64,000 bases of DNA from an uncultured Bacilli bacterium (lineage in GTDB: Bacteria; Bacillota_I; Bacilli_A; RF39; UBA660). Below, piece after piece: positions 1-54,047 of this stretch (positions are counted from its first letter, which is position 1; each line of letters opens with the position of its first letter). The position numbers and the translations under genes were made by a program. The DNA lies in NCBI GenBank assembly GCA_934086395.1, contig CAKOIE010000003.1:1163-65162 (forward strand). The letters run 5' to 3'. The notes below the pieces were generated by a model that saw nothing but the letters and a program-made list of their open reading frames with translations, ran no database searches and was not told where the DNA came from.

Positions 1-1592
1 TTACTACGAACATTTAAAACACTAAACTGGTCACCTGAGTAAGGAGACAATGTCCAATACCAATTTAATTTATGCAACCAATTATCTATTTTACATTTCA
101 CATTTGTATAATCAAATTGTTGACTTATAGAATTATACTCTATGCCAGCCCTTAAATTTTCTCTACATTCACTATTTGTTGAGGCATATCCATAATCACT
201 TACATAAATTAGTCCAACCTTACCAGTCCATTTAGTAGGGCGACTATTTTGATAGGTTATTGTTCCTCTTTCTTTACTATATTGATCAAGAAGAGGTAAT
301 CCATATGGTAGAGTATTTGGATTATTCCATGCATTTCCACCTATACTCCATACACTTTCACTTATCATATTTTGATAAGTGCCTTTTATAACTTTAGTAT
401 AATCAAATTCTCCTGTTTGGCGAAGTACTGGTTTATTAGCACTTGAATCATAATATGAATTATACCAATTTGTCTTGTTTGAAGTTAGGTTTGTATTTAA
501 ATAATCACCATTTAACTCTTTCATTAAATCAGCCTTTGTCCAATCATTAATTCCATAGTTATTATTTTTAGTAGCATCCCATGAATAATAACCTAGCTGT
601 TCGTCTCTTACTAATTTTAGTTTTTTGCTTGTTACTCCACTAGAATCTTTTATATTAAATACTCCAATTATTCTCCATGTTTCATTATTAAACTCAACAT
701 AATTTCTAGGTTCTGCTCCTGTATATCTTAAGTTTACATCACTTGTATTATCTATAAATAATCCATTTTCATTATTTATATCTTTTTGTTGCAAAGTTGT
801 TACATATTCTACAGCATTTACACCAGTACTTTCAAAATTTACTACTAACTTATTTGGCAATGACGAAATATTATCTACTGTATATGACCATTTTCCAGTT
901 GCATAATTGCAACTGAAACCTACTGTACTATCTTTTAACTCAGTATTATTTTTATAAGCAGTTGATATAGCACTGTAAAAACAAGTTGTAGGTAATTCTT
1001 TTACTTCTACTCCATCTACGTACGCTACTATATCTATATCTTTATTTAAATAATTAATATATTTTATCTGATTTGCTAGTTCTAAATCATTCCATATATA
1101 TCCTGCATTTAAATTAAGTTTTATATAATAATCATTATTACTTTTATTATTTGTTAAGATAGTTAATGACTTAGTTTTACTTGAATTTATAGTTCCACTT
1201 ACTTCACTAGATTCATATTCTTTAGATACACTTATATCACTTGGTATATTATTATTTGTTTCTGTACAATTTTGATTATTACATAATTCATAAGTAAATT
1301 CATACTTAACATCTATTTTATTTAAATTAGTTAATATTATATTAAATTGTTCAATCTTACCTGCTTGTAAATGTAATATTCTATCATTTGTTTCACCACT
1401 ATTTGTTGTTATATTAAATGATAAATCATTAACCTTTATATTAGCAATCTTTTTATTTTGACTACTTGTAAACATCGATAATGAATAACCTAAAGTAAAT
1501 ATAAATAATAGTATAATTCCCATTATAGTTAATATCTTTGCTTGTTTATCTTTTTTTATTAAATTAAAAAATTTGATAAGTTTAGTTTTCAT
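1..1592 (-). CDS. secreted surface protein, paralog of 30818..32542 (3' end outside the window)
   Basis: The minus-strand frame is open from the window edge to the ATG at 1590-1592. It is absent from the ORF track because there is no stop inside the window. Nt ~1080-1660 are almost identical to ~32030-32610, and the remainder aligns with divergence. The N-terminus is the same: TM plus ...LGYSLSMFTSS, a signal-like segment. Confidence 0.8.
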   Translation of the reverse strand, partial: MKTKLIKFFNLIKKDKQAKILTIMGIILLFIFTLGYSLSMFTSSQNKKIANIKVNDLSFNITTNSGETNDRILHLQAGKIEQFNIILTNLNKIDVKYEFTYELCNNQNCTETNNNIPSDISVSKEYESSEVSGTINSSKTKSLTILTNNKSNNDYYIKLNLNAGYIWNDLELANQIKYINYLNKDIDIVAYVDGVEVKELPTTCFYSAISTAYKNNTELKDSTVGFSCNYATGKWSYTVDNISSLPNKLVVNFESTGVNAVEYVTTLQQKDINNENGLFIDNTSDVNLRYTGAEPRNYVEFNNETWRIIGVFNIKDSSGVTSKKLKLVRDEQLGYYSWDATKNNNYGINDWTKADLMKELNGDYLNTNLTSNKTNWYNSYYDSSANKPVLRQTGEFDYTKVIKGTYQNMISESVWSIGGNAWNNPNTLPYGLPLLDQYSKERGTITYQNSRPTKWTGKVGLIYVSDYGYASTNSECRENLRAGIEYNSISQQFDYTNVKCKIDNWLHKLNWYWTLSPYSGDQFSVLNVRS

Positions 1593-7800: not shown

Positions 7801-8167
7801 CATCATTTAATGAACCACTTAGGCTAGCCCCTTTACGATTCTTTTTTAATGTATAAATACGAAACGCATGAGCTTGAGTCATGTTATCAACATTATTAGT
7901 TTTAGCATAATTTGCCATTGCAATTAACCCTTTAGCAAAAGAACCACTTTTAACATTTAAAGTTTCCACACTATTTACATGAGATGGATTATATAAATTT
8001 GCATCAACACATGTAGCAAGTTCTCCTCCAATACGATACTCAAATCCAAGATGAGATGGCTCACTATATGATCCTAATCCACTCATAGTAAAAGATTCAC
8101 TTGTACTTTCAGCATTAGCAACAAAAGGAATAAACATTAAACCTAATAATAAAAACAATTTTTTCAT
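4871..8167 (-). CDS. large Cys-rich secreted protein
   Basis: 1098 aa with a signal peptide MKKLFLLLGLMFIPFVANA, about 27 Cys by my count, a central Ala/Lys/Glu coiled-coil-like segment and an acidic DDGGDGDGEG patch. Its start overlaps the stop of the upstream gene (TAATG). Confidence 0.7.
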   Translation of the reverse strand: MKKLFLLLGLMFIPFVANAESTSESFTMSGLGSYSEPSHLGFEYRIGGELATCVDANLYNPSHVNSVETLNVKSGSFAKGLIAMANYAKTNNVDNMTQAHAFRIYTLKKNRKGASLSGSLNDGIINNMLNYNSDDAIGKMVKIGTCVYDGTCKDEESKYLPSSTGNVGSFKVTKLSNTYDGDNGYATAVVSIVNQNSGGNVVVSGCSSDGLSCNISKDSSGSNNYKIIVKGNVANKNSIKVDINIEGNTGNGLINEVKLYTCDESMGNCSSYFNGPFQRFIKLISSDFKQNGSASIYIDVPNTCANIDVSTLVQGSKEEDDYIKKCGPIVHLEQSCGKSSCDGDSSYKAFNHSYVRMRNMKYLMQDLDNEGANSNGGFIGTDSKYSEYLDSTVNNYCGTFTTESVDMYTPATAASVSGQFFVFDSYTSNDYNNVNGYFRQPFIVERVKSTFFFHYKQWLSDYTAAAWAEINAYDNWQDAVKDVKVKYDAKIEAEKVKDEAQSAVDNESCRFYREHRYKNGKVEWEDDGYDSETCNNNLKNATEAYESALKAYKESYVVTEPQTQQAYKSAIAARLAKETERETCVNALKKYSNPGVSFNSVPQVDFTYKQNSKTEGNKEYTINMVNNTEAVKYWPNVTSNSGISSYLGLNYSGLNSQGKNPSSSANSLAGVANKPYSDAATRQNKGVVLKNAITGETDNYNWPDGKHDNCKPTANSPKPCVSYDFDNLSFNSMQLASDGTIPYSSSDTNIVIEGEEKISKIYYYRPPNNSFSLMNSGEYKTLNYTSNSAVTDINGLEIGYVYNIELTSYAGEYTTSFKMNNIGASYSTGKQKVQELIDAYIRNNNITNFESTCNYCNMEMAFNRICESCEDDGGDGDGEGFEYLPQFYYRSISLSDVTPNERKDGETNWSDNKGNAAKALIELGSGSASLDSSETSDYIALNTSKVNTKNSSGDAATYLADSSGTGKHDIYDDVSRDYLEYEVTLTTKDLQLIKKNSAKSYFKYSEMNMCAGIVPNSKDLDSQYCFKCNSDMKECESSFVSTFFSDTSGRSKWKYYVDGRYCIGTISTCIKGLDYVEDGKYPDPLFPKQFLERYKNWP

Positions 8168-30659: not shown

Positions 30660-30817
30660 AATATCCCTCGATTTCTTATATCAAAATTGTATCAAATTTA
30701 CTTAATAAAGAAAAGAATTTAAATGCATATAGAAAAAAATGGATATAATTCCATTTCCAAAAATAAATAAATTTTAATCTAATTTATACAAAGACACAGT
30801 TAATTGAACGGACTCCA

Positions 30818-32542
30818 TTAAATAGATAATTTATAAGGATCAACTTTTTCACCATTTCCACTAGCTATCAAGATATCAGATTTCAAGAAAACGGCCGGCC
30901 AAACCGCGTAGGAATCATACGCGAAGCCGTAGTCGAAAGCACCGTCCCCAAGCACAACGAACACGCTATGCGAGTAACCAGAGTAAGGCGATAACGTCCA
31001 ATACCAAGAGTTTTTAAATAACCAGTTATCTGTCTTACATTTTCCGTTTGTGTAATCCCATTTATCACTTTCTTTATCATATGTTACACCTGCTCTTAGG
31101 TTTTCATGACATTCTGCAAGTGTTGATGCATATCCATAATCACTGGCATAAATTAGTCCAACCTTACCTGTCCACTCAGTAGGGCGATTATTTTGATATG
31201 TTATTGTTCCTCTTTCTTTATTATATTGATCTAATAGAGGCAATCCATATGGTGGAGTATTTGGATTATTCCAGGTATTTCCTCCTATGTTCCATACACT
31301 TTCACTTATCATATTTTGATAATTACTTTTTATAACTTTAGTATAATCAAATTCTCCAGTTTGGCGAAGTACTGGTTTCTTAGTTGTTGAATCATAATAT
31401 GAATTATACCAATTATTCTTGTTTGCTGTTAATGCTGTATTTAAATAATCACCATTTAATTCATTTTTTAAGTCTGCTTCTGTCCAATTATTAAATCCAT
31501 AATCATTATTTCCAGTTGCATCCCATGAATAATTACCTAATGATTCATTTCTAACTAATTTAATCTTTCTTTCAATTTTACCAATTGAATCTTTTACATT
31601 AAAAACTCCAACTATTCTCCATAATTCTCCTGTGTTTGCAAACTCAACATAATTTCTAGGCTCAGCACCTGTATATCTTACATTTTTATCTACGGTTGGA
31701 TCGATAAATAATCCATGTTTATTGTTACTATCTAGTTCTTGAACTTTACTTACATATTCTACTGCATTTATTCCTTTACTTTCAAAGTTTACTACTAACT
31801 TATTTGGTATATTATCTAAATTTGAAACATTAATATCCCATTTTCCGGTTGCATAATTACAGTTAAAACTTACTGGGCTATCTTTTAACTCAGTATTATT
31901 TTTATAAGCAGTTGATACGGCACTATAAAAACAAGTAGTAGGTAATTCTTTTACTTCTACTCCATCTACATACGCTACTATATCTATATCTTTATTAATA
32001 CCTTTAATATATTTTATCTGATTTGCTAGTTCTAAATCATTCCATATATATCCAGCATTTAAATTAAGTTTTATATAATAATCATTATTACTTTTATTAT
32101 TTGTTAAGATAGTTAATGACTTAGTTTTACTTGAATTTATAGTTCCACTTACTTCACTAGATTCATATTCTTTAGATACACTTATATCACTTGGTATATT
32201 ATTATTTGTTTCTGTACAATTTTGATTATTACATAATTCATAAGTAAATTCATACTTAACATCTATTTTATTTAAATTAGTTAATATTATATTAAATTGT
32301 TCAATCTTACCTGCTTGTAAATGTAATATTCTATCATTTGTTTCACCACTATTTGTTGTTATATTAAATGATAAATCATTAACCTTTATATTAGCAATCT
32401 TTTTATTTTGACTACTTGTAAACATCGATAATGAATAACCTAAAGTAAATATAAATAATAGTATAATTCCCATTATAGTTAATATCTTTGCTTGTTTATC
32501 TTTTTTTATTAAATTAAAAAATTTGATAAGTTTAGTTTTCAT
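30818..32542 (-). CDS. secreted surface protein with a DUF1566/DUF6273-like C-terminal module
   Basis: 574 aa with an N-terminal TM/signal segment. The C-terminus is ..NSWYWTLSPYSG....AVWPAVFLKS. It is a paralog of 1..1592 and of the split gene 34760..36063. Confidence 0.75.
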   Translation of the reverse strand: MKTKLIKFFNLIKKDKQAKILTIMGIILLFIFTLGYSLSMFTSSQNKKIANIKVNDLSFNITTNSGETNDRILHLQAGKIEQFNIILTNLNKIDVKYEFTYELCNNQNCTETNNNIPSDISVSKEYESSEVSGTINSSKTKSLTILTNNKSNNDYYIKLNLNAGYIWNDLELANQIKYIKGINKDIDIVAYVDGVEVKELPTTCFYSAVSTAYKNNTELKDSPVSFNCNYATGKWDINVSNLDNIPNKLVVNFESKGINAVEYVSKVQELDSNNKHGLFIDPTVDKNVRYTGAEPRNYVEFANTGELWRIVGVFNVKDSIGKIERKIKLVRNESLGNYSWDATGNNDYGFNNWTEADLKNELNGDYLNTALTANKNNWYNSYYDSTTKKPVLRQTGEFDYTKVIKSNYQNMISESVWNIGGNTWNNPNTPPYGLPLLDQYNKERGTITYQNNRPTEWTGKVGLIYASDYGYASTLAECHENLRAGVTYDKESDKWDYTNGKCKTDNWLFKNSWYWTLSPYSGYSHSVFVVLGDGAFDYGFAYDSYAVWPAVFLKSDILIASGNGEKVDPYKLSI

Positions 32543-34759: not shown

Positions 34760-36063
34760 TTACATAATTCTAAATGCCGGTGATATTCCTTGTTTTGTAT
34801 TTGAAGCAAGACTTCTATACCAATCTCCCGAAACATTAATATATACAAAAGTACTATTAGTTGAATTACGTAACCACCAAAAACTATTTGTTCCATCATA
34901 TTTTTTTATTAATAAACCAAAATTATCAGTAGTAACATTATTTATAGAATAATAATCTAACTGCCTACTTAAATTATATGCGCTATCTGTAGGAGAAATA
35001 TGATTAGATTTACCGTCTTTAAATATTTCTCTAGCGCTTAATAAATATATTTTATCTTCAGTACTAAAATTTGTACTATCACTTGAACCATAGCCTGAAA
35101 TAACATTTGTTGAAATAATGCTATTTTGTAAACCCGTGGGCAATTTAGTAAAAAAAGAATTATTTAAATAAGTTCTTATTTCCGATTTTTCCCATCCACC
35201 TGTATTAGTTGCTGTAAGATTCATCTCCTTTAATTCTACGATATCCACAAATTCTAAAACAAATCCACAAGCTGTCTTTGAAAATCCCTGTTTACTGCAT
35301 TCTTCAGGTGTTGTATTATTTGCAACTCTAACTTTATGTACTTGATTATCAATCATTACCTCTTTTTCAGAACCAACTGCATATGTTGTTAAATAACCAT
35401 CTTTAACAATATTAGCTATTCTTTCCCATGAATCAGTACTAAATGATCCTTCATAGTTAACAACTATCTTTCCAGCGAAACTTTTTCCTTTTTCACTATC
35501 TTGATTTTCATTATTATCTGGAAATTGTAGTTTTAAATTAAATGTAATTGTTTGATTTGTGGTATTTGTTTTAAAATCTCCTGTTGCGAGTTCTAGGTAT
35601 CTATTCCATTTTTTAAAGTTCCATGAGTATAGCCTGTTTCTGAGGTATTTCCAGGTATTGTTTGATTTGCTGTTCCAACTAAATTACTTGTTACATTATT
35701 ATTTGTATTAGTTCTTTTTATATAATAATGAATCATTCCATCACTAAACTCTGATACATAATCTAGGCCTACTTTATATGGCATAGCTAAACCATTTGTC
35801 GTATTTGTTCCTGTTAATTTAAATGTTTTATTAACTATAATGTCATTACTTGGCACAATATTTTTACTAGTTAACAAATCACTTGATCCATCAGAATAAC
35901 TTATGGTCATCTTACCTCCTGTTACTTCTACTATTGATGTACTTCCATTATTGTTTGTTGATGTAAAAAAAGCATATGTTATTCCTGAAAACATCATTAA
36001 TAATATTAATAATGTTCCAATCATTACATATACTTTTGCTCTTTCATTCTTAACATTATTCAT
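34760..36063 (-). pseudogene. secreted protein of the same family, split by a frameshift at an A6 tract (track ORFs 35593..36063 and 34760..35356)
   Basis: The upstream ORF carries a camelysin/TasA-type signal (..FSGITYAFFTST). The downstream frame is open from ~35650 and ends in WWLRNS...GISPAFRIM. One extra A at 35609-35614 fuses them into 434 codons. Confidence 0.7.
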
Positions 36064-45529: not shown

Positions 45530-46165
45530 CTATTTTGTAGTTCCATCATGATCAAAAATTATTTTTTTAATTTTTGCTGGTAATTGAAAATTAGTACTCA
45601 ATATTTCTTCATTTGTTCTTTCAGGATAATTTACAACAGCAAGTTTTACCATTGCTTCATTTGTTAGTTCATCCTCATTATAGTTACTTTTTTCTTTTAA
45701 ATTCTTAAGTTCTTCTTCTAAACTTTTAATTTTATCCTCTGATTTTTCTATTCCTTTAGACAATTCTTTTATGTTAAATTTATTTTCTTTATATGTTCCT
45801 AATAGAGAATATGATACAAATTGAATAAAAATTGTAATAGCGGTAGCTGCAAATAATATTCCAAATAATGTTTTATAAAAACCAATCTCACTTAATAATA
45901 TATCTCGACCCATAAAAATAATTATAAAGATCCAAAATATGTTTAGGAAAAAAAATTTATTTTTCGTTTTAATATTATTTTTAGATTTTTTTAATTGTTC
46001 TTTTAACATACTTACATAATTATTTTCTCTCTCTATTTTATTTTGTAAAGATAAAATTTTAACTGTATCTTCATTTTCACTAGATTCTACTCTTTTTAAT
46101 TTATTTTCATCATCTTCTACTACCCCAACTTTAGCTGTTTCATTCAAATATAACTCTTTATTCAT
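45530..46165 (-). CDS. tandem-paralog membrane/coiled-coil protein 1
   Basis: 211 aa with a conserved N-terminus MNKELYLNET.., a variable double-TM core and a conserved C-terminus ..EEELKNLKEK.NYNEDELTNE...PAKIKKI.F.H.GTTK. Confidence 0.65.
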   Translation of the reverse strand: MNKELYLNETAKVGVVEDDENKLKRVESSENEDTVKILSLQNKIERENNYVSMLKEQLKKSKNNIKTKNKFFFLNIFWIFIIIFMGRDILLSEIGFYKTLFGILFAATAITIFIQFVSYSLLGTYKENKFNIKELSKGIEKSEDKIKSLEEELKNLKEKSNYNEDELTNEAMVKLAVVNYPERTNEEILSTNFQLPAKIKKIIFDHDGTTK

Positions 46166-46198
46166 ATTATTTTTTCCTCTTTCTTTAATTTAAATCGT

Positions 46199-46227
46199 AT
46201 TATAGCAAACATTTGTTACTTTGTCAA
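46199..46227 (-). promoter_or_regulatory. consensus promoter TTGACA-17-TGcTATAAT for 45530..46165
   Basis: The reverse complement reads gaTTGACAaagtaacaaatgtttgcTATAATacg. A sister copy at 46959-46987 has TACAAT. Confidence 0.65.
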
Positions 46228-46310
46228 TCGAAACATCTGATGTGTAAATTATCTATATTAAAATTAATGTTAATAAAACCTGTGCGATATTTAAAAAATA
46301 AGAAAAGGAA

Positions 46311-46925
46311 CTATTTTGTAGTTCCATTATGATTAAAAGTTATTTTTTTAATTTTTGCTGGTATTTGAATATCGCTAACTAATGTTTCATCGCTTGTTCT
46401 TTCAGGATAATTTACTGTTGCAAATTTTATCACTTCTTCATTTGTTAGTTCATCCTCATTATAATTACATTTTTCTTTTAAATTTTTAAGTTCTTCTTCT
46501 AAAACCTTAATTTTATCATCAGATTTTTCTATTTCATTAGGTAATTCTTTCATAATTAGTCTATTTTCCTTAAATGATCCAAAATATTTTTTGCCTAAAA
46601 TTTGAATTATAGACATCGTAACGCCAACCATTGTTGTTATAAGGAACTGAATAATATTAAAATCATTAAATAAATTAAATGCCAAAATAATTATAGGCTC
46701 CCAAAACATTAAGTTTATACATTTTAAAATTATACGAACTTTAGCGTCAGATAATACTTTTTGCATCCTTACTACACTTTTATTTTCTCTTTCTATTTCA
46801 TTTTGCAATTCTAAAATTTTAACTGTATCTTCATTTTCACTAGATTCTACTCTTTTTAATTTCTTTTCATCATCTACTACTAGTCCAACATTTGTTGTTT
46901 CATTTAAATATAACTCTTTATTCAT
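46311..46925 (-). CDS. tandem-paralog membrane/coiled-coil protein 2
   Basis: 204 aa, same family. A terminator hairpin GGAACTAcaaaaTAGTTCC spans its stop codon. Confidence 0.65.
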   Translation of the reverse strand: MNKELYLNETTNVGLVVDDEKKLKRVESSENEDTVKILELQNEIERENKSVVRMQKVLSDAKVRIILKCINLMFWEPIIILAFNLFNDFNIIQFLITTMVGVTMSIIQILGKKYFGSFKENRLIMKELPNEIEKSDDKIKVLEEELKNLKEKCNYNEDELTNEEVIKFATVNYPERTSDETLVSDIQIPAKIKKITFNHNGTTK

Positions 46926-47068
46926 ATTATTTTTTCCTCTTTCTTTAATTTAAATCGTATTGTAGCAAACATTTGTTACTTTGTCAATCGAAACATCTGA
47001 TGTAAATTATCTATATTAAAATTCATATTAATAAAACCTGTGTGATATTTAAAAAATAAGAAAAGGAA

Positions 47069-47695
47069 CTATTTTGTAGTTCCATTATGATTAAAAGTTA
47101 TTTTTTTAATTTTGGCTGGTATCTGAATATCGCTAACTAATGTTTCATCACTTGCTCTTTCAGGATAATTTACTGTTGCAAGTTTTATCACATCTTCATT
47201 TGTTAGTTCATCCTCATTATAGTTACTTTTTTCTTTTAAATTCTTAAGTTCTTCTTCTAAACTTTTAATTTTATCCTCTGATTTTTCTATTCCTTTAGGC
47301 AATTCTTTTATGTAAAATTTATTTTCTTTATATGTTCCAAATAAATATTTTAAATACATTTGTACAATTATACTAGTTCCACCAAATAAAATTAGAAAAC
47401 CGATTAGTTTAGCAATTGTACTGTTCATTACAATTAATACTGGAATAAAAAACGGAGCCGGTGCTAATAAACATATAAGTGAAAGTATATTTTTACATTT
47501 AATATTATCTTTGGATTGTTCTAATTGTTCTTTAAACATTGTTACATATTTGTTTTCTCTCTCTATTTCATTTTGTAATGACAAAATTTTAACTGTATCT
47601 TCATTTTCATTAGATTCTACTCTTTTTAATTTTTTTTCATAATCTACTACTAATCCAACATTTGTTGTTTCATTTAAATATAATTCTTTATTCAT
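47069..47695 (-). CDS. tandem-paralog membrane/coiled-coil protein 3
   Basis: 208 aa, a mosaic of paralogs 1 and 2. Confidence 0.65.
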   Translation of the reverse strand: MNKELYLNETTNVGLVVDYEKKLKRVESNENEDTVKILSLQNEIERENKYVTMFKEQLEQSKDNIKCKNILSLICLLAPAPFFIPVLIVMNSTIAKLIGFLILFGGTSIIVQMYLKYLFGTYKENKFYIKELPKGIEKSEDKIKSLEEELKNLKEKSNYNEDELTNEDVIKLATVNYPERASDETLVSDIQIPAKIKKITFNHNGTTK

Positions 47696-47714
47696 ATTCT
47701 TTTTTCCTCTTTCT

Positions 47715-48392
47715 TTAATTTATATTAAAATCATAATTTTTAATTTTAATGTTACTTAATTCCGAATCTCTATTTTTTTCTTTTAAGCTATTAGAATAAT
47801 TAATTCTTGATAAATCTATTTCATCAATATTTAAGTTATTAGTTTTACTAAACTTAGCTTGTTTTTTCATATCATCTAATTCTTTTTGCAAAAGACTTAT
47901 TTTATCTATATTATTTTTAATTAAATTTGGAAGCACTTCTTTTTTTAATCGATAATTTTCTTTAAATGATTTATTGATTAATTCAAATACTGTAGTAACT
48001 AATATATTTATAGAACTTAATATAATACCTACAATTGTAAGTGAAATAATATTATTGGGTGTAACTAATAAATTAATAACAAATAGCAAACAAAATTCAA
48101 AAACAACACTAATAATTATTCCATTATATTTATCTTTAATATTTTTTTCAATTAAATCTAATGTATCGATATTCTCACTTAAATTATGTTGTTCAATCTC
48201 CAAATTATTTTCTTTTATCATTATTTCATTTACTTCTTTAGGCATATTTTTAGAATCTACAATATAATTTTTTTCTTCTCCATCATATATAATTCCTATA
48301 CCAGTTGTTTCATTTAATAATGTTCCTTCATCCACTTGATAATCACTTCCGTTTGTATAGAATATATTATTAAAATATACTTTAAAAGTCAA
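47715..48392 (-). CDS. distant member of the same paralog family
   Basis: 225 aa with the same architecture (LNETTGIG.., double TM, SFKENY, coiled coil) but low identity. Confidence 0.55.
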   Translation of the reverse strand: MTFKVYFNNIFYTNGSDYQVDEGTLLNETTGIGIIYDGEEKNYIVDSKNMPKEVNEIMIKENNLEIEQHNLSENIDTLDLIEKNIKDKYNGIIISVVFEFCLLFVINLLVTPNNIISLTIVGIILSSINILVTTVFELINKSFKENYRLKKEVLPNLIKNNIDKISLLQKELDDMKKQAKFSKTNNLNIDEIDLSRINYSNSLKEKNRDSELSNIKIKNYDFNIN

Positions 48393-48410
48393 TTCGAAAT
48401 TTATTTTAAT

Positions 48411-49559
48411 TTAACAATCTTTATAAATATCATAAAGATATTCTAAATCCATTTGTTGTAATACTTGTTTTAGATAGTCTTTATTTTTAGGGCTTCTTAA
48501 ATCAATATTACTTTGATAAACTTTGTTTTTCCAATAATTACTATTATCTTTATCTAAATATGTCTCTTTTAATAATTTTTCATTCAAATTTATATCATAA
48601 CCTATACCATGATTTTTAAAATCAGCATCATTATATCGTGATTCATTGTTATTTTTAATTAAATTGTTATTATATTCGATTTCCTTATAAACTTCGCCAC
48701 ATTGAAACATTATCTTGTTGGGGTCTATTCCTGAAATACTTTTACCATACATTATAGGATATTTAATATTTTTTGGAAGTTCATCATGACCAATAATTTG
48801 ATAATCACCATAATATATATTATTATCCATAATATGTTGTGATGGATATGTTGGTAATGTTTTAAGTTTATCTATAGAAACATTTTTATCTTCAGTTAAT
48901 ATATGAAATATTTCTATTATTAAAGGTCTTCCCATAAGTATATCCCAGTATTTAAAGCCTTTCTTAGTTCTTTTATATACATCCATTAATATTCTTCCAT
49001 AAGTATAACTATGTTTTCCAACCTTTACTCTAAAATAATCTCCCTCTTTATAGTTGATGTGGGTACGTTTTTCATTAATAAATAAATTTAATTCTTCTAA
49101 GTCATCAGTTGTTAAATCGTTAATATAGTTATTTAACCATTCATTTAACGAGTCTAAATCACTAATTTTCTCATCAAAATATTCTTTTAAGAATGTTTTT
49201 TGAGTTGTATAGTTTCCTATTATGTAATATCCTTCTTTTTCTTTTGATTTAGATATATAAAAGTAGGCCCCATAACCACTTAAATTCTCAATTACTGAAA
49301 AAGTTATTTTTTTAGGTTTACCTCTATTTGTTTTGTGAAGTATTATTTGGTGATTATTAGTTGTATCATAATCTACATCTTTCTCTTTTAAAGAAAAATA
49401 CTTATCAGTAACATATAAATTAATTATTTTAACTATTTTATCTTTATCAAAATAAACAAGTATTTTAACACAGCCATCCTCATATATTTCACATTTATAA
49501 TTATCTTTAAGTGGCTTTACACCTAAATATTTACGATATTTATTACTATATATTTCCAT
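48411..49559 (-). CDS. hypothetical protein
   Basis: 382 aa with no TM and no motif I can name. Confidence 0.5.
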   Translation of the reverse strand: MEIYSNKYRKYLGVKPLKDNYKCEIYEDGCVKILVYFDKDKIVKIINLYVTDKYFSLKEKDVDYDTTNNHQIILHKTNRGKPKKITFSVIENLSGYGAYFYISKSKEKEGYYIIGNYTTQKTFLKEYFDEKISDLDSLNEWLNNYINDLTTDDLEELNLFINEKRTHINYKEGDYFRVKVGKHSYTYGRILMDVYKRTKKGFKYWDILMGRPLIIEIFHILTEDKNVSIDKLKTLPTYPSQHIMDNNIYYGDYQIIGHDELPKNIKYPIMYGKSISGIDPNKIMFQCGEVYKEIEYNNNLIKNNNESRYNDADFKNHGIGYDINLNEKLLKETYLDKDNSNYWKNKVYQSNIDLRSPKNKDYLKQVLQQMDLEYLYDIYKDC

Positions 49560-49590
49560 AAATTTTCCTTTAACTATTTTAATTATTATT

Positions 49591-49688
49591 TTCTTCTAAC
49601 ATTTTTTCTTTTATTTTATCAACATCGGTAAAGAATAAATTTGTTCATTGATTTTTCATAGCAAGTAATGAGTTAAAGTTATATGATA
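49591..49688 (-). pseudogene. 3' remnant of a ToxN/AbiQ-like toxin gene
   Basis: It aligns with 50686-50783 of the intact gene. The translation is NFNSLLAMKNQ*TNLFFTDVDKIKEKMLEE, against NFNSLLAMKRQGINLFFTDIDKIKEKMLNE in the intact copy. Confidence 0.75.
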
Positions 49689-49718
49689 TCTAGATCTTTG
49701 ATGAAGCTTTACATATTT

Positions 49719-49767
49719 TCGATTGGAATCATTTATAACCCGCACCATCCATAAGCGGCTAACATTT
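49719..49767 (-). ncRNA. single orphan copy of the type III antitoxin repeat, with its promoter at 49797-49824
   Basis: TGGAATCATTTATAACCCGCACCATCCATAAGCGGCTAACATTT is identical to the units at 51216-51259 and 51266-51309. The promoter is TTGATT-16-TATACT. Confidence 0.6.
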
Positions 49768-49846
49768 ACCTCAAGTACTATCTTAAGTACAAAGAAAGTA
49801 TACTATAATTTTAAAAAAAATCAAATAGTTCTAGTAACACTAACGA

Positions 49847-50512
49847 TTATCTCTTTACCAATCTTTTTCCTTTATTTTTATTATACATATATTCATCTAT
49901 CGAAACTTGATGTTTTATATCTTTAACATCATCAACCAATTGTAACTTATTAAATAAACGCATAAACATAACATTAAAAGGAGCATAATAACTACCAGAA
50001 TTACAAAATTTAATTGTTACTCTTCCAATATTTGAACTACCATTTATAAATCCTGGCAAAATAGATTTAGGTATAAATTCAAGTTCGAATTCATCATCTA
50101 TTTTTCTTATCTTTAAAATGTTAGCATTATCGTGATTAAATTCATCACTACACCAAGTAATAGCCTTATTTTCTATATCATACAATTCAGAATAATGATA
50201 AAAATCATATTTAAAAGCTTTCTCACGATATATTTTATTATATTTTTCAGCCTCATAATTATTAAAAATATCATCATCCAAAATACAAACATTTACATTT
50301 TCTATATCCGCAAATAAATCTTGAAATGATGAATATACTGCACCATTTTCTCTAGTGATAGTAAAAAACATATTTTTAATTAATTTACTATCATCCATTA
50401 TTGTCCAGTACAAATCACCATTTCCATAAATCGACATAATAAGCCTAACATTTCCATCAATTAATGTGATATCTTTAAATCCATTATTAATTCCACTAAT
50501 AACAATTTCCAT
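49847..50512 (-). CDS. hypothetical protein
   Basis: The track ORF extends to 50533, but GGAGG plus 6 nt precedes the ATG at 50510-50512 (MEIVISG..). Confidence 0.5.
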   Translation of the reverse strand: MEIVISGINNGFKDITLIDGNVRLIMSIYGNGDLYWTIMDDSKLIKNMFFTITRENGAVYSSFQDLFADIENVNVCILDDDIFNNYEAEKYNKIYREKAFKYDFYHYSELYDIENKAITWCSDEFNHDNANILKIRKIDDEFELEFIPKSILPGFINGSSNIGRVTIKFCNSGSYYAPFNVMFMRLFNKLQLVDDVKDIKHQVSIDEYMYNKNKGKRLVKR

Positions 50513-50647
50513 TTTAAACCTCCAAACATACAATATACTACCTCAAAATAACACTTGGCACAAAATTATTTTCATATTTGTCATAATATTATTTACTTAA
50601 TTTTTTGAATCAACTTTCCATCAAAGATATTAATATGAAACACTTTT

Positions 50648-51142
50648 TTATTTATGTAATTTATCATTTTCTAACTCATTTAACATTTTTTCTTTTATTT
50701 TATCAATATCTGTAAAAAATAAATTTATTCCTTGCCTCTTCATAGCAAGTAATGAATTGAAGTTATATAATATTTCATTTTTAAGGTTATCTGCAACTCT
50801 AACTGGTGCACCATTTTCGGTATGAATATGATCAATATATTTTTCTAAAGTAGGAAATGCATTTTGAATTAATATAACAGATTTTTTATTAGCAATTTCA
50901 CTTATCATTATAGATTTACAACTACCATATTTTTTTATTTTCTTTTCAATAATTGGCTTATATTTGGATACGTTGCTACTTAAAGGTATAAACCATAAAA
51001 TATCTCCATCTTTAATAGTAAAATAGGTTGGTCTAGACTTCCCATTTTCATGATTAATCATCAATCCCTTGTCATTTTTTTTATCAAAAAAAGTATCTTT
51101 AATATGATAAATGTATCCAGTTTTAATTTCCAAAACAATCAC
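50648..51142 (-). CDS. type III toxin-antitoxin system toxin, ToxN/AbiQ/CptN-like endoribonuclease
   Basis: GKSRPTYFTIKDGDILWFIPLSSNVSKYK matches the family hallmark RP...(x)n..aPLSSpK. Size is ~160 aa, with tandem RNA repeats upstream. The start may be the TTG at 51131-51133, after AAGGGTGA. Confidence 0.7.
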   Translation of the reverse strand: MIVLEIKTGYIYHIKDTFFDKKNDKGLMINHENGKSRPTYFTIKDGDILWFIPLSSNVSKYKPIIEKKIKKYGSCKSIMISEIANKKSVILIQNAFPTLEKYIDHIHTENGAPVRVADNLKNEILYNFNSLLAMKRQGINLFFTDIDKIKEKMLNELENDKLHK

Positions 51143-51169
51143 CCTTTCAATGAGAATATATCATAAACC

Positions 51170-51198
51170 AAAATAAAACTCCATCATTATTGATGAAG
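51170..51198 (-). terminator. hairpin plus U-run between the antitoxin repeats and the toxin ORF
   Basis: The minus strand reads CTTCATCAataaTGATGGAG followed by TTTTATTTT. Confidence 0.6.
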
Positions 51199-51202
51199 CT
51201 TT

Positions 51203-51309
51203 ACACATTTTCGAGTGGAATCATTTATAACCCGCACCATCCATAAGCGGCTAACATTTCGCGATTGGAATCATTTATAACCCGCACCATCCATAAGCGG
51301 CTAACATTT
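51203..51309 (-). ncRNA. type III antitoxin RNA: 2.2 tandem 50-nt direct repeats
   Basis: The 44-nt cores at 51216-51259 and 51266-51309 are identical, with 6-nt linkers and a partial unit at 51203-51210. Confidence 0.7.
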
Positions 51310-51338
51310 ACCTCGAATACTATCTCAAGTACATAAAA

Positions 51339-51367
51339 AGTATACTATAATTTTAACGAAAAGTCAA
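51339..51367 (-). promoter_or_regulatory. promoter TTGACT-17-TATACT driving the repeats and toxin
   Basis: The reverse complement reads atTTGACTtttcgttaaaattatagTATACTttt. Confidence 0.6.
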
Positions 51368-51884
51368 ATAACTCTAGTAGCATACATTATATTATATGTT
51401 CTTTTTCTAAAATTAAACATAAAGACTTTCTATTCACATTTATATGGTGATTCGGCATAGTTATCTTTAATTTTATCTAAAGTTAGAGTTGTTAAATATT
51501 CACTGGCAGTCTTGCAAATAAAAATAAACTTCACCACTAATGATGAAGTTTATAAATTAATTATCTCTTTTCAAAACCAACTGTTTAGTTTTCATATAAT
51601 CATCTCTTTTAATATCTTTTTTCTTTGCAATATTTATCTCTCCTACCATTCTTACTATCATAAGTATATTATTTGAAATTTTAAAAATCAATAAATCAGT
51701 TAATAAATATTAAACTATTTTTTACATATGTTAATTTCAATATAAAATTGATGTTGTTTGATCAAATAATAATATAATTTTTTACACATTTTTATATTAG
51801 TACTAACATATAACATGAACCGATTTTCACAACGGGCAATCTTAAAAACACACATAATATTTTATCTATGTTCCACTACTCCCA

Positions 51885-52808
51885 TTATTCCTCATATCTA
51901 ACCTCATTCATATAATTAAATCCGCTTAAGTAATAATCATCTGAATATTCCCTTACTCTGTTTTCCATAACATCATTTATAGGTATAAGTGTATAATCTT
52001 TTAATACTACATATTTATATGTAAATGTTAATATTTCATCATAATATCTAGTTAACATATTAATTTTTACAGTAGTAATAATTCTTTTATTTAAATCATT
52101 ATCAAAGTAACTCATTAATTCATAAAAACCTTTATCTGTTTTAACTATTCTTTCATTATATATTCTAATTACTTTTTCACCTTCATAATTGCCACTTATT
52201 TTTTGGGTAGTTGGATATTTATCATTTCCATAATCTTTACTATATAAAATATTATCCTTTACATAAGCATATTCGGACATAAAATCATAATCAATCTTTT
52301 TTCCAAGAAATTCTGTTGAGTATTCCCATTTAAGATAATCACTTAAATTATAATTAGCATTTAAATACATATCATAACTATCTGTAACTTTATTATCGGT
52401 ATTATCATCATGTAAGGTATATATTATATCATTATAATCGTAAAATTTTATGTCTGCTCCTGAGTTTGGAGCAATATTCATAACCTTAATATTTTTGTCT
52501 ATATCATATACTTTTTTATAAACAAACTCTCCATTATCTAACTTTTGTGGATTAAAAATATATATAGAATTATTAGCTATAAATGAGTATTTACTAAATG
52601 ATGTATCTTCAGTTAATATTTCTCCACCATTTAGTTTTTGATATTCTTTATCTGAATATTTTTTCTTAAGTGCATCCAATATTGAATTTGCCTCTGGTGG
52701 TGTATGATCATTTAATTCCTGTTTTCCATTTTTAATAATGGCTATAGAAATAATGCTTATTAATACGATAGATACAATAACAACATAAATTATTTTTTTA
52801 CTATTCAT
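51885..52808 (-). CDS. membrane-anchored extracellular hypothetical protein
   Basis: 307 aa with an N-terminal TM. Confidence 0.5.
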   Translation of the reverse strand: MNSKKIIYVVIVSIVLISIISIAIIKNGKQELNDHTPPEANSILDALKKKYSDKEYQKLNGGEILTEDTSFSKYSFIANNSIYIFNPQKLDNGEFVYKKVYDIDKNIKVMNIAPNSGADIKFYDYNDIIYTLHDDNTDNKVTDSYDMYLNANYNLSDYLKWEYSTEFLGKKIDYDFMSEYAYVKDNILYSKDYGNDKYPTTQKISGNYEGEKVIRIYNERIVKTDKGFYELMSYFDNDLNKRIITTVKINMLTRYYDEILTFTYKYVVLKDYTLIPINDVMENRVREYSDDYYLSGFNYMNEVRYEE

Positions 52809-52815
52809 ATCACAC

Positions 52816-53898
52816 CTATTTTTCTATATATCCACTCGTTTTTTGCGTGTACATATCATTAGTTATAGCTTTATATCTTTTCCCATCATAATCATCTGTG
52901 AATCCATTATAAGCTTTATATATTTCATTAGTTTCCGTATCATATACTCTTTCATAACCAAGAGTTGCATCACTTTGTTTTTGACTCATAATATCAAATG
53001 ATTTATTTCGCTTATTCCAAGAATCCATTATCCCATCACTTATTTGATTACCTATAGCTCTAATTTGTTGGAAGTTTTTCATGACTGCATCTTGTTGTTG
53101 ATTAAATCCATTTATAAAGGTATCTGTGAATTCTAGTGAAGAACAAATAGTATTTAACGTATCTTGCCAATCAATAAATTCGTCTTTAGGCGCAGTAATA
53201 AAAATAGTATCATAAACATTTAAATATTGTATATCTATTTTTTTGCCCGAAATTATATTTTCTGACACATAATAAGAACCCACATCATACACATAAGCCG
53301 TAAATATTCCTTCTCCTTCTTTACCATTTGCATCTTTAAATGTTGCCCTTAACATATCTCCACCTAAACTGCCTTTACCTAAATTATCAATTACTGTAAA
53401 TTCAGTTAATGTTGGAAATGTAAATGTACTAGTATTATTTAAAGTACCTAAGTCATTAAATATTTTATAAAAACCTAAAGTATCTTTAGTAGCTATTACA
53501 CTAGTTTTAGCAAACATATTATTAGGATAATATTTTTGTTGCCATCTTTTCGCATCTTCTGATTTGTTATAACCCTCAGTTTTCATATTAAAGAAAAACT
53601 GATAATTAGGATTTTCTGGATTATATACTTTAATTGTATAATGAATATAATCACCTAATGTATCAACTTTCCATCCTTTTGGTTTTTTAATAGAAAACTC
53701 ATTTGTAGTATAATCTTCTAGTTCTATTTTACTAGCTTCTGACTTAACTATTTTTATATTAGAATCAGGATTATAAAATAATCCTTTACCATTTCTGCCC
53801 CCTTTAATAAGCAAAATAATTTCCCCTATAATAACAAGAACAACAACACCTATTATAATAAAATTTTTTTTAGAAATATTTAGTTTATCAAGTTTCAT
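52816..53898 (-). CDS. membrane-anchored extracellular hypothetical protein
   Basis: The track ORF reaches 53955, but AAGGAGG precedes the ATG at 53896-53898 (MKLDKLN.., then a TM). Confidence 0.5.
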   Translation of the reverse strand: MKLDKLNISKKNFIIIGVVVLVIIGEIILLIKGGRNGKGLFYNPDSNIKIVKSEASKIELEDYTTNEFSIKKPKGWKVDTLGDYIHYTIKVYNPENPNYQFFFNMKTEGYNKSEDAKRWQQKYYPNNMFAKTSVIATKDTLGFYKIFNDLGTLNNTSTFTFPTLTEFTVIDNLGKGSLGGDMLRATFKDANGKEGEGIFTAYVYDVGSYYVSENIISGKKIDIQYLNVYDTIFITAPKDEFIDWQDTLNTICSSLEFTDTFINGFNQQQDAVMKNFQQIRAIGNQISDGIMDSWNKRNKSFDIMSQKQSDATLGYERVYDTETNEIYKAYNGFTDDYDGKRYKAITNDMYTQKTSGYIEK

Positions 53899-54047
53899 AA
53901 TATCAAATTCCTCCTTTATATTTAAAATTATAATTTGAAACAATTCAAAGAGCAACTAACTTGCCACAAAAATCAATGTTTTTAATGGAAAGTTATTTTA
54001 GCATAAATTAAAATATAGTATAATAATAATTAAGGAAGTGATAATCT

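What the first reader, a model, noticed from the sequence alone, without database searches (positions are those of the whole stretch)
30891..30998. GC-rich, adenine-depleted 108-nt patch at the 3' end of a surface-protein gene: candidate DGR variable region
This patch lies inside 30818..32542, in DNA that is otherwise well under 30% G+C.
- By my hand count it is ~56% G+C (61/108), and only ~11% A on the coding strand (12/108).
- About 23 of its 36 codons end in G or C, including 13 NNC codons (TAC, AGC, TTC, GAC, GGC, TCC, GCC...). NNC is the pattern expected when AAC codons of a template repeat are mutagenised at adenines by a diversity-generating retroelement.
- The patch encodes YSHSVFVVLGDGAFDYGFAYDSYAVW, between the conserved WYWTLSPYSG and PAVFL elements of a DUF1566/DUF6273-like (lectin-like) C-terminal module. 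That is a fold class known to host DGR variable regions.
- It ends in the GC-only palindrome GGCCGGCC (30894-30901), comparable to the GC-rich IMH boundary of DGR targets.
- Where the truncated paralog at nt 1-60 overlaps the patch, it uses ordinary AT-rich codons and different residues (SGDQFSVLNVRS). So this is a local replacement and not a family property.

No reverse transcriptase or template repeat is present in this window.
Basis: partly seen in the sequence, partly recalled or inferred. Interest (0 to 1): 0.7.

Follow-up and report, generated by a model that had tools for sequence, protein, structure and literature searches.

The report
Retroelement-written variable patch in adhesin gene
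The GC-rich, adenine-poor patch is almost certainly the variable region of a surface-protein gene that a diversity-generating retroelement rewrites at template adenines, but the reverse transcriptase and template repeat could not be found in any sequence I could search.

Summary
Window 30891-30998 has 56.5% G+C and 11% A on the coding strand, in a window of 24.6% G+C. It is the only 108-nt stretch of the window, on either strand, with 13% A or less.

Comparison with ten homologous patches from relatives shows the signature of a diversity-generating retroelement (DGR):
- The 103-nt tract 30893-30995 has 45 invariant columns and none of them is A.
- It has 31 hypervariable columns, 30 of them at codon positions 1 and 2 (NNC/NNT, as expected from AAC/AAT template codons).
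- It ends in a 27-nt boundary that is conserved in all 11 patches apart from three variable columns. Nearly all of its adenines never vary, as in an IMH.
- The C-terminal domain is DUF6273-like, a published C-type-lectin-like DGR target domain.
- A sister strain differs at 19 positions inside the patch, against about 11 scattered substitutions elsewhere in 4 kb.

The gene belongs to a family of paralogs scattered among housekeeping genes. No reverse transcriptase or template repeat was found in the window, next to 13 target loci, in three related MAGs, in IMG/VR, in JGI metagenomes, or in phage and plasmid records. Most alleles keep one patch sequence across samples.

Verdict: this is a remote, or possibly orphaned, DGR target. 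It is a new member of a known kind.

The parts
30818..32542 (-). Target gene of 574 aa. It has an N-terminal hydrophobic anchor, beta-rich middle domains and a C-terminal DUF6273-like domain that carries the variable patch.
   Evidence: ORF. The database search gave 942 homologs. The Pfam DUF6273 hit on residues 493-555 is weak (E = 0.0028, below the curated cut-off), but 18 of 60 family members hit DUF6273, best E = 3.7e-19.
32423..32485 (-). Predicted membrane anchor or signal helix, about residues 20-40 (ILTIMGIILLFIFTLGYSLSM).
   Evidence: The sequence is hydrophobic, and the AF2 model has a helix at residues 16-39 at low confidence. This is inferred, not tested.
30893..30995 (-). Adenine-mutagenised tract, the variable region proper (103 nt, roughly codons 516-550).
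   Evidence: Alignment of 11 homologous patches. There are 45 invariant columns (T20, G15, C10, A0) and 31 hypervariable columns that include A, 15 at codon position 1, 15 at position 2 and 1 at position 3. The remaining 27 variable columns are mostly single deviations, chiefly C/T or G/A changes.
30872..30898 (-). IMH-like 3' boundary, CCGGCCGTTTTCTTGAAATCTGATATC: a short GC run followed by a segment that is conserved even though it contains adenines.
   Evidence: From the fixed CCG codon onward the segment matches in all 11 patches apart from the NCC codon (GCC, ACC, ACA or GTC), a TTT for GTT in L007, and GTC for ATC in L007 and L009. Paralogs without the GC-rich patch have a different sequence here: L003 has CCATCAGTTTATCTTAAATCTAATGTC and P0175 has CCATCACTTTATCTAAAATCTAATGTT.
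30790..30811 (-). Conserved 22-nt motif CCGTTCAATTAACTGTGTCTTT just after the stop codon. Its role is unknown.
   Evidence: It occurs once in the window, with 0 expected by chance. It is also present after the orthologs L014 and L017 and after the non-orthologous paralog L006.
31200..31299 (-). A second mosaic patch in the same gene, probably a gene-conversion tract from a paralog.
   Evidence: It holds 12 of the 42 substitutions against the sister strain L017.
1..1592 (-). Paralog P0025 (572 aa), which runs off the window start. It has an AT-rich equivalent of the patch and is not a current target.
   Evidence: The VR profile scores only 21 bits here, against 120 bits at the patch.
34760..36063 (-). 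Two ORFs (34760-35356, a DUF6273 domain; 35593-36063, an N-terminal anchor fragment). They look like split remnants of another family member, and both are AT-rich.
   Evidence: Pfam DUF6273 E = 9.6e-20. Their layout resembles the fused 790-aa relative P0041.

Best explanation
The patch is the variable region (VR) of a DGR target gene.

Proposed mechanism:
- An RNA copy of a template repeat (TR) is reverse-transcribed by a DGR-type reverse transcriptase that misincorporates opposite template adenines.
- The cDNA replaces the 103-nt tract 30893-30995 of this surface-protein gene. The replacement stops at the conserved IMH-like boundary 30872-30898.
- The TR inferred from 11 patches is roughly TCT GGT AAC TCG AAT AAC GTG TTC AAT GTG AAT GGG GAC GGT GCT GTC AAY AAC AAC AAC GCG TAT AAY TCC AAC AAN GTT ... 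CCG ACC.
- Scaffold residues are encoded without adenine, which explains the adenine depletion and the G+C richness in a 25% G+C genome.
- About 12 AAY codons and about 8 single adenines are randomised. This diversifies about 20 residues of a DUF6273 (C-type-lectin-like) ligand-binding surface.

The gene is one of many dispersed paralogs, several of which carry the same scaffold and boundary, so it is a remote (trans) target. The RT/TR cassette lies outside the window and was not found.

What is shown and what is inferred:
- Shown: the composition, the position-specific pattern across patches, the conserved boundary, and the rewriting of the patch between sister strains.
- Inferred: the TR sequence, the involvement of an RT, and whether the system is still active.
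For: 1. Composition: the figures in the observation check.
2. Eleven patch DNAs from different loci and genomes were aligned.
   - 0 of 45 invariant columns is A. Among invariant columns upstream in the same genes, 42% are A. Binomial p = 2e-11.
   - There are 31 hypervariable columns, 15 at codon position 1, 15 at position 2 and 1 at position 3. All four bases occur there (A 42%, G 30%, T 15%, C 13%), which is unlike the AT-rich background.
3. The boundary CCG-NCC-GTTTTCTTGAAATCTGATATC is conserved in all 11 patches apart from three variable columns. It is absent from AT-rich paralogs.
4. The orthologous locus in MAG CAKOJQ01 (L014) has the same downstream gene but a completely different patch.
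5. The sister-strain contig L017 differs from the window by 42 substitutions over about 4 kb. Nineteen fall in 30900-30999 and 15 of those are at inferred template-adenine columns.
6. Four of 10 clusters at 90% identity contain alleles with a wholly different patch.
7. The domain is DUF6273-like. Published work describes DUF6273 as a C-type-lectin-like DGR target with the VR at its C-terminal end (PMC10743442, PMC11792537).
8. [quoted passage not shown] Remote targets are known and are missed by standard detection pipelines (PMC8144416).
Against: No TR or RT was found anywhere I could search.
- Window: blastn with word size 7, an nhmmer VR profile, an RT motif regex, and Pfam on 40 ORFs.
- About 257 kb of DNA around 13 target loci.
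- The GTDB representative genomes. A pattern compatible with both TR and VR found 6 VRs in three Bacilli MAGs but no TR.
- JGI metagenomes and IMG/VR.
- Phage and plasmid records.
- A protein search with the six-frame translation of the inferred TR.

The patch is identical in P0001, P0002 and P0003. In most allele clusters the patch is more conserved than the rest of the protein. For example, 14 of 15 P0004 alleles share it while differing at 8-36 other residues. Diversification is therefore rare or has stopped.

The patches also carry ordinary substitutions at scaffold positions, chiefly C/T and G/A changes, and some are frameshifted.

No hairpin lies downstream of the boundary. The structure models were too poor to confirm the fold.
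Confidence: 0.8

Rival explanations
1. Relic variable region. The patch was written by a DGR, but the RT/TR cassette has since been lost from this lineage, or was carried only transiently on a mobile element. The patch is now a frozen, slowly decaying sequence. Differences among strains arise from gene conversion between paralog patches. This reading is nested within the DGR-origin explanation and differs only on present activity.
For: - The three related MAGs hold 6 VRs between them, 4 in CAKOJQ01 alone, but no TR.
- Patch sequences are stable across samples within most allele clusters.
- Scaffold positions carry single-base deviations, chiefly C/T and G/A changes.
- There is a half-decayed patch that has lost its boundary (P0175), and frameshifted patches exist (P0028, P0179).
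- A clear gene-conversion patch lies elsewhere in the same gene (31200-31299).
Against: - The patch was replaced between strains whose flanks differ by only about 0.3%.
- Neither of the two patch sequences was seen in any other of the 176 family proteins then in hand, so no donor paralog is known.
- The boundary is still conserved in all 11 patches apart from three variable columns, which suggests continued constraint for homing.
- MAGs routinely lose short or repeat-flanked contigs, so absence of a TR from MAGs is weak evidence.
Confidence: 0.3
2. The patch has no retroelement origin. It came by horizontal transfer or gene conversion from a GC-richer homolog. Ordinary diversifying selection on binding-site residues then produced the variable columns.
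For: - The patch is compositionally foreign.
- No RT or TR was found (the calls listed under the best explanation).
- Gene conversion does occur in this family.
Against: - It does not explain why none of the 45 invariant bases is A.
- It does not explain why variability is confined to codon positions 1 and 2 with position 3 fixed as C or T.
- It does not explain why all four bases occur at those columns (A 42%, G 30%, T 15%, C 13%) in a 25% G+C genome, or why a boundary containing adenines is conserved nearly base for base.
- No GC-rich donor was found in any collection searched.
Confidence: 0.06
3. Cassette-type antigenic variation. Silent partial copies recombine into the expression locus, as in pilin or Vls-type systems.
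For: - The family is multi-copy, with mosaic blocks among alleles.
- A second mosaic patch lies in the same gene.
Against: - Every patch found lies in a family gene that continues through the conserved C-terminal tail to a stop codon. No silent partial cassettes were seen.
- The variable columns look like independent draws rather than shared mosaic segments.
- Adenine avoidance would remain unexplained.
Confidence: 0.04

Closest known systems
Treponema denticola DGR and its TvpA-family targets (from my own knowledge; Le Coq & Ghosh 2011 is cited in PMC8144416)
   Same: Both are cellular DGRs serving several dispersed target genes that encode surface proteins. In both, a C-terminal C-type-lectin-fold variable region is written at template adenines. 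Most targets are remote from the RT.
   Different: In Treponema the RT/TR cassette is known and lies next to one target. Here no cassette was found. The domain here is DUF6273-like rather than of the FGE-sulfatase/TvpA type, and the host is a 25% G+C uncultured gut Bacilli lineage.
DUF6273-domain DGR targets of Faecalibacterium prophages and of phages nd4/nd12 ('tentaclins') (PMC11792537, PMC10743442)
   Same: They share the Pfam family. DUF6273 is described as C-type-lectin-like, and in the Faecalibacterium prophage targets the variable region maps to its C-terminal end.
   Different: Those are phage receptor-binding or tail proteins with the RT and TR in the same cassette. The window gene is chromosomal, lies among housekeeping genes, and has no phage context. 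It has no detectable relative in IMG/VR or INPHARED.
Bordetella phage BPP-1 Mtd/Brt, the DGR prototype (from my own knowledge; cited in PMC8144416)
   Same: Both have a variable tract of roughly 100-130 nt at the 3' end of the ORF. In both, AAC-type codons are randomised and a GC-rich element plus a conserved segment (IMH) marks the 3' boundary.
   Different: The GC run here is only about 7 nt, against 14 in BPP-1. No downstream hairpin or cruciform was detected. The RT, Avd and TR were not located.
Legionella pneumophila LdtA DGR (from my own knowledge; Arambula 2013 is cited in PMC8144416)
   Same: Both diversify a surface-displayed bacterial protein in a C-terminal C-Lec domain.
   Different: LdtA is a single lipoprotein target adjacent to its cassette on a genomic island. 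Here there are many paralogous anchored proteins and no cassette is seen.

Membership tests
Diversity-generating retroelement (target / variable region) | Variability is confined to positions that are adenine in the template; non-adenine positions are copied faithfully. | tested here: met
   Tested indirectly by comparing patches, because no TR is available. In 11 patches, 0 of 45 invariant columns is A, against 42% A among invariant columns upstream. There are 31 hypervariable columns that retain A in 42% of cells, and 30 of the 31 are at codon positions 1 or 2. A direct TR-VR comparison was not possible.
Diversity-generating retroelement (target / variable region) | The variable region lies at the 3' end of the target ORF, within a C-type-lectin-fold domain. 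| tested here: inconclusive
   Position: met, since the tract ends 24 codons before the stop. Fold: the Pfam DUF6273 hit is below the cut-off for this protein (18 bits against 23.5), although 18 of 60 family members match, best E = 3.7e-19. DUF6273 is described as C-Lec-like in PMC10743442. My AF2 models had pLDDT of 63 and 59, and the Foldseek matches were meaningless.
Diversity-generating retroelement (target / variable region) | A conserved 3' boundary element (IMH): a GC-rich stretch plus a conserved segment that is not mutagenised. | tested here: met
   CCG-NCC-GTTTTCTTGAAATCTGATATC is conserved in all 11 patches apart from three variable columns, and nearly all of its adenines never vary. 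It is absent from the AT-rich paralogs. Its function was not tested.
Diversity-generating retroelement (complete system) | [quoted passage not shown] | tested here: not met
   Not found in the window, in 25 fetched loci totalling about 257 kb, or in the three related MAGs scanned with a TR-compatible pattern. Also not found in JGI metagenomes, IMG/VR, or phage and plasmid records. The complete source genome could not be searched, so absence from the organism is not shown.
Diversity-generating retroelement (complete system) | A DGR-clade reverse transcriptase, usually with an Avd-like accessory gene, near the TR. | tested here: not met
   No RVT or Avd Pfam hit in the 40 window ORFs scanned. 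No RT motif in six-frame translations of the window or of any locus. No RVT family among the called genes within 10 kb of the target loci.
Diversity-generating retroelement (target / variable region) | A DNA hairpin or cruciform just downstream of the VR. This is described for BPP-1 and is not universal. | tested here: not met
   A DNA fold of 30780-30905 gives -3.2 kcal/mol, with z = +1.1 against shuffles.
Diversity-generating retroelement (target / variable region) | The VR sequence differs among closely related strains or within populations. | tested here: inconclusive
   It was rewritten between the window and sister strain L017 (19 of 42 substitutions fall in the patch), and in 4 of 10 allele clusters. 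It is identical across samples in most clusters, including P0001-P0003. Read-level data are not available.

The most novel reading that the evidence does not exclude
Reading 1: one RT/TR cassette services a whole dispersed family of housekeeping-embedded adhesin genes, at least 4-5 VR-bearing paralogs per genome. The cassette would sit on an unbinned mobile element or phage and act in trans on host chromosomal genes. The host is an uncultured 25% G+C spore-forming gut Bacilli lineage where no DGR is described.

Reading 2, more radical: the template is not a conventional stand-alone TR next to an RT.

Reading 1 would explain why three MAGs hold VRs but no TR. It would also give a visible life cycle of targets, from competent (boundary intact, GC-rich), through half-decayed, to fully AT-ameliorated paralogs.
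Probability: 0.15. Interest if true: 0.7.

Novelty: new member of a known kind. Interest (0 to 1): 0.45.

Why it matters
- It shows that a DGR target can be recognised from composition alone in a very AT-rich genome. The need to encode scaffold residues without adenine leaves a sharp GC-rich, A-poor island. This gives a way to find remote targets, which RT-anchored pipelines miss (PMC8144416 states that its approach would not detect remote targets).
- It points to programmed diversification of a large surface-protein family in an uncultured human and animal gut Bacilli lineage. These proteins are likely adhesins or ligand-binding proteins involved in host, phage or neighbour interactions.
- The family contains intact, half-decayed and fully ameliorated patches. 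It therefore offers a natural series for studying how DGR targets are gained, serviced and abandoned.

Tried and rejected
Searches for the TR or RT, all negative:
- Exact-pattern scans. The TR/VR-compatible pattern found only VRs in genome contigs, and two Planctomycetota hits there were chance matches. It found nothing in metagenome contigs. A TR-specific pattern with AAY codons found nothing. Four patterns found nothing in IMG/VR.
- blastn of the patch against INPHARED phages and PLSDB plasmids, and tblastn of a TR-like C-terminal domain against phages.
- The search for related loci with a C-terminal alignment in IMG/VR.
- A protein search with six-frame translations of the inferred TR.
- A search with a TR-like 70-aa peptide, which returned only three gene fragments. 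Two were looked up and are contig-end or frameshifted targets; the third is on a 723-nt contig and was not examined.
One found nothing on record. The other eleven showed target or paralog loci embedded among gyrB, mutS, mutL, relA, nrdD, uvrB, Tad/T2SS and similar genes, with no RVT family nearby.

Other attempts:
- Rfam found only a tRNA.
- Structure prediction of the full protein and of the C-terminal 304 aa gave low confidence (pLDDT 63 and 59), and the Foldseek hits were meaningless. A profile search of PDB sequences gave nothing.
- A test of synonymous-codon conservation in the patch against the flanks was not significant (10/14 against 54/104, p = 0.25), because the paralogs are similar at the DNA level everywhere.
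- The GC-rich element after the stop codon in L006 and L012 looked at first like a possible DGR RNA element. It is better read as a terminator hairpin followed by a T-run. This was by inspection only.

Rejected ideas:
- That the GGCCGGCC palindrome is functional: it is not conserved.
- That an AT-rich paralog could serve as the template: its scaffold codons differ.
Full report
**The observation**

The gene 30818-32542 lies on the minus strand and encodes 574 aa. On its coding strand, 30891-30998 reads T35 G33 C28 A12, which is 56.5% G+C and 11.1% A. The window as a whole is 24.6% G+C. It is the highest-G+C 100-nt stretch in the window (0.58; the next highest is 0.45). It is also the only place, on either strand, where a 108-nt window holds 13% A or less.

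Of the 37 codons that touch the patch, 24 end in G or C and 13 are NNC. In the other 537 codons of the gene the figures are 11.7% and 4.7%. The paralog at the window start is a full gene (P0025, 572 aa, start at 1592) that runs off the window. It is not a truncated one.

**What the relatives show**

A database search found 942 homologs. The closest ones, at 60-99% identity, are conserved along their length except in exactly this stretch. There, fixed residues (W-T-L-S-P, V-F, V, G, G-A-V, A, S, V, P-A-V-F-L) alternate with positions that take almost any residue.

I collected the DNA of ten further patches from different loci and genomes: L001, L005, L006, L007, L009, L010, L012, L014, L017 and L020. 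I aligned them with the window patch.

In the 103-nt tract 30893-30995:
- 45 columns are invariant and none is A (T20, G15, C10). Among invariant columns in the roughly 230 codons upstream in the same genes, 42% are A (138 of 328). The binomial probability is 2e-11.
- 31 columns are hypervariable and include A. Fifteen lie at codon position 1, fifteen at position 2 and one at position 3. The variable codons are therefore NNC or NNT.
- At those columns all four bases occur (A 42%, G 30%, T 15%, C 13%), unlike the AT-rich background.
- The other 27 variable columns are mostly single deviations. Many are C/T or G/A changes, the kind expected from ordinary mutation in a very AT-rich genome.

This is the pattern a DGR leaves. 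The template carries adenine only where variation is wanted, typically as AAC or AAT codons, and the reverse transcriptase misreads adenines (mechanism as summarised in PMC8144416). The template inferred from the patches is given in the best explanation.

**The boundary**

Right after the last variable codon comes CCG-NCC-GTTTTCTTGAAATCTGATATC (30872-30898). Apart from the NCC codon, a TTT for GTT in L007, and GTC for ATC in L007 and L009, it is identical in all 11 patches. Nearly all of its adenines never vary, so they lie outside the copied and mutagenised tract.

Paralogs whose equivalent stretch is AT-rich have a different sequence here (L003; P0175). A short GC run followed by a conserved segment that is not mutagenised is the layout of the IMH that marks DGR targets (prototype BPP-1; my own knowledge).

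I found no hairpin downstream.

**Evidence that the patch is rewritten in place**

- L014, from MAG CAKOJQ01, is the ortholog of the window gene. It has the same downstream HAD-family gene but a completely different patch.
- L017 comes from a sister strain. Over about 4 kb it differs from the window by 42 substitutions. Nineteen fall in 30900-30999, twelve in a second patch at 31200-31299, and about eleven elsewhere. Of the nineteen, fifteen are at inferred template-adenine columns.
- In ten clusters of alleles at 90% identity, four contain members with a wholly different patch.

**Evidence that rewriting is rare or has stopped**

- P0001, P0002 and P0003, from three samples at 92-100% identity, have the same patch.
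- In the P0004 cluster, 14 of 15 alleles share one patch while differing at 8-36 other residues.
- Some patches are frameshifted (P0028, P0179/L021).
- P0175 sits at the locus orthologous to the window-start paralog in the sister strain. It keeps the GC-rich scaffold in its 5' half but has lost the boundary and is AT-rich in its 3' half.

The family thus seems to hold competent, decaying and fully ameliorated versions of the same stretch.

**The protein**

- The N-terminus is a hydrophobic anchor, and the middle is beta-rich (low-confidence model).
- The C-terminal domain gives a weak DUF6273 hit in this protein (E = 0.0028, below the curated cut-off). Eighteen of 60 family members match, best E = 3.7e-19. 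A second DUF6273 ORF lies at 34760-35356 (E = 9.6e-20).
- DUF6273 is described as C-type-lectin-like and as a DGR target domain. In Faecalibacterium prophage targets the variable region maps to its C-terminal end (PMC10743442, PMC11792537).
- I could not confirm the fold. The two AlphaFold models had mean pLDDT of 63 and 59, and the Foldseek matches were meaningless.

**The missing half of the system**

I did not find a template repeat or a reverse transcriptase.
- Window: no similar copy of the patch apart from the paralog at nt 1-113 and no further hit with an nhmmer patch profile. There was no RT motif in six frames and no RVT or Avd family in 40 ORFs scanned, which are ordinary housekeeping genes.
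- Target loci: thirteen, about 257 kb in all, sit among gyrB, dnaG, mutS, mutL, relA, nrdD, uvrB, proS and Tad/T2SS genes, with no RT.
- GTDB representative genomes: a pattern that any template must match, fixed at scaffold bases and N at variable ones, found six patches in three uncultured Bacilli MAGs. Four were in CAKOJQ01, one in CAKOMY01 and one in JAGBES01. All were inside target genes. There were also two chance hits in Planctomycetota.
- Other collections: JGI metagenomes, IMG/VR, INPHARED phages and PLSDB plasmids hold neither patches nor a template.
- Protein searches with translations of the inferred template found nothing useful.

MAGs often lose short, repeat-flanked or mobile contigs, and this gene family visibly breaks assemblies. 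Many family proteins are truncated fragments, some on very short contigs. The cassette may therefore exist but be unbinned, it may sit on a mobile element, or it may have been lost.

**Conclusion**

The patch has the composition, the position-specific variability, the boundary element, the domain context and the between-strain replacement expected of a DGR variable region.

It is a remote target, one of several dispersed paralogs with the same scaffold. Remote targets are known, for example in Treponema denticola (my own knowledge), and RT-anchored surveys miss them (PMC8144416).

Two things remain open: where the RT/TR cassette is, and whether it still services this gene. I put 0.8 on a DGR origin and about 0.3 on the nested reading that the patch is now an orphaned relic. 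Non-retroelement explanations, namely a foreign GC-rich patch with diversifying selection or cassette recombination, do not account for the absence of invariant adenines, the codon-position pattern or the conserved boundary.

This is a new member of a known kind. Its practical lesson is that, in very AT-rich genomes, DGR targets stand out as A-poor GC islands.

Noticed in passing
window 30790-30811 (- strand); L006 11740-11761; L014 943-964; L017 4977-4998: A 22-nt motif, CCGTTCAATTAACTGTGTCTTT, lies just after the stop codon of the target gene. It recurs after a non-orthologous paralog (L006). L006 and L012 also carry GGTGCCGCGAAGCG immediately after the stop codon, and in L012 a GC-rich terminator-like hairpin follows. 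Its function is unknown, and it may be part of the duplicated gene unit.
   Followed up: partly
window 31200-31299: A second cluster of 12 substitutions against the sister strain L017 lies inside the same gene, in otherwise nearly identical DNA. It looks like a gene-conversion tract from a paralog. Allele clusters show similar mosaic blocks at residues 173-183 and 197-209.
   Followed up: partly
window 1-1592 (- strand) and L019 10001-11740: The paralog at the window start (P0025, with an AT-rich patch equivalent) is replaced in the sister strain, at the orthologous locus, by a different family member (P0175). Its patch is half GC-rich scaffold and half AT-rich, and its boundary is lost. This appears to be a decaying variable region.
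   Followed up: partly
window 34760-36063 (- strand): Two adjacent ORFs, an N-terminal anchor fragment of 156 aa and a DUF6273 domain of 198 aa. They resemble split pieces of a family member. The 790-aa relative P0041 has the target domains plus an extra C-terminal DUF6273 domain in one protein.
   Followed up: partly
L019 13653-18093; L022 13306-14415: Several target loci lie next to Tad/type II secretion-type ATPase and platform genes (TadE, T2SSE, T2SSF). Next to L019's target is a 578-aa protein with a prepilin-like N-terminus. This raises the possibility that the family is associated with a pilus.
   Followed up: no
window 45530-53955: A run of ORFs of 164-379 aa has no Pfam match, apart from one protein with an Imm26 immunity domain (48411-49559). 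This may be a polymorphic-toxin/immunity island or some other accessory island.
   Followed up: no
L021 167-292; P0028; P0179: Some relatives carry patches with 1-nt deletions or upstream frameshifts, so the patch is read in another frame. These are either pseudogenised targets or assembly errors in a repeat-rich family.
   Followed up: partly
L010 about 7000-7962: The least-mutated patch (L010, MAG CAKOJQ01 contig 15) retains A at 18 of the 31 template-adenine columns. About 1 kb after it the contig ends, in sequence that by eye resembles an IS66-family transposase. This was not tested.
   Followed up: no
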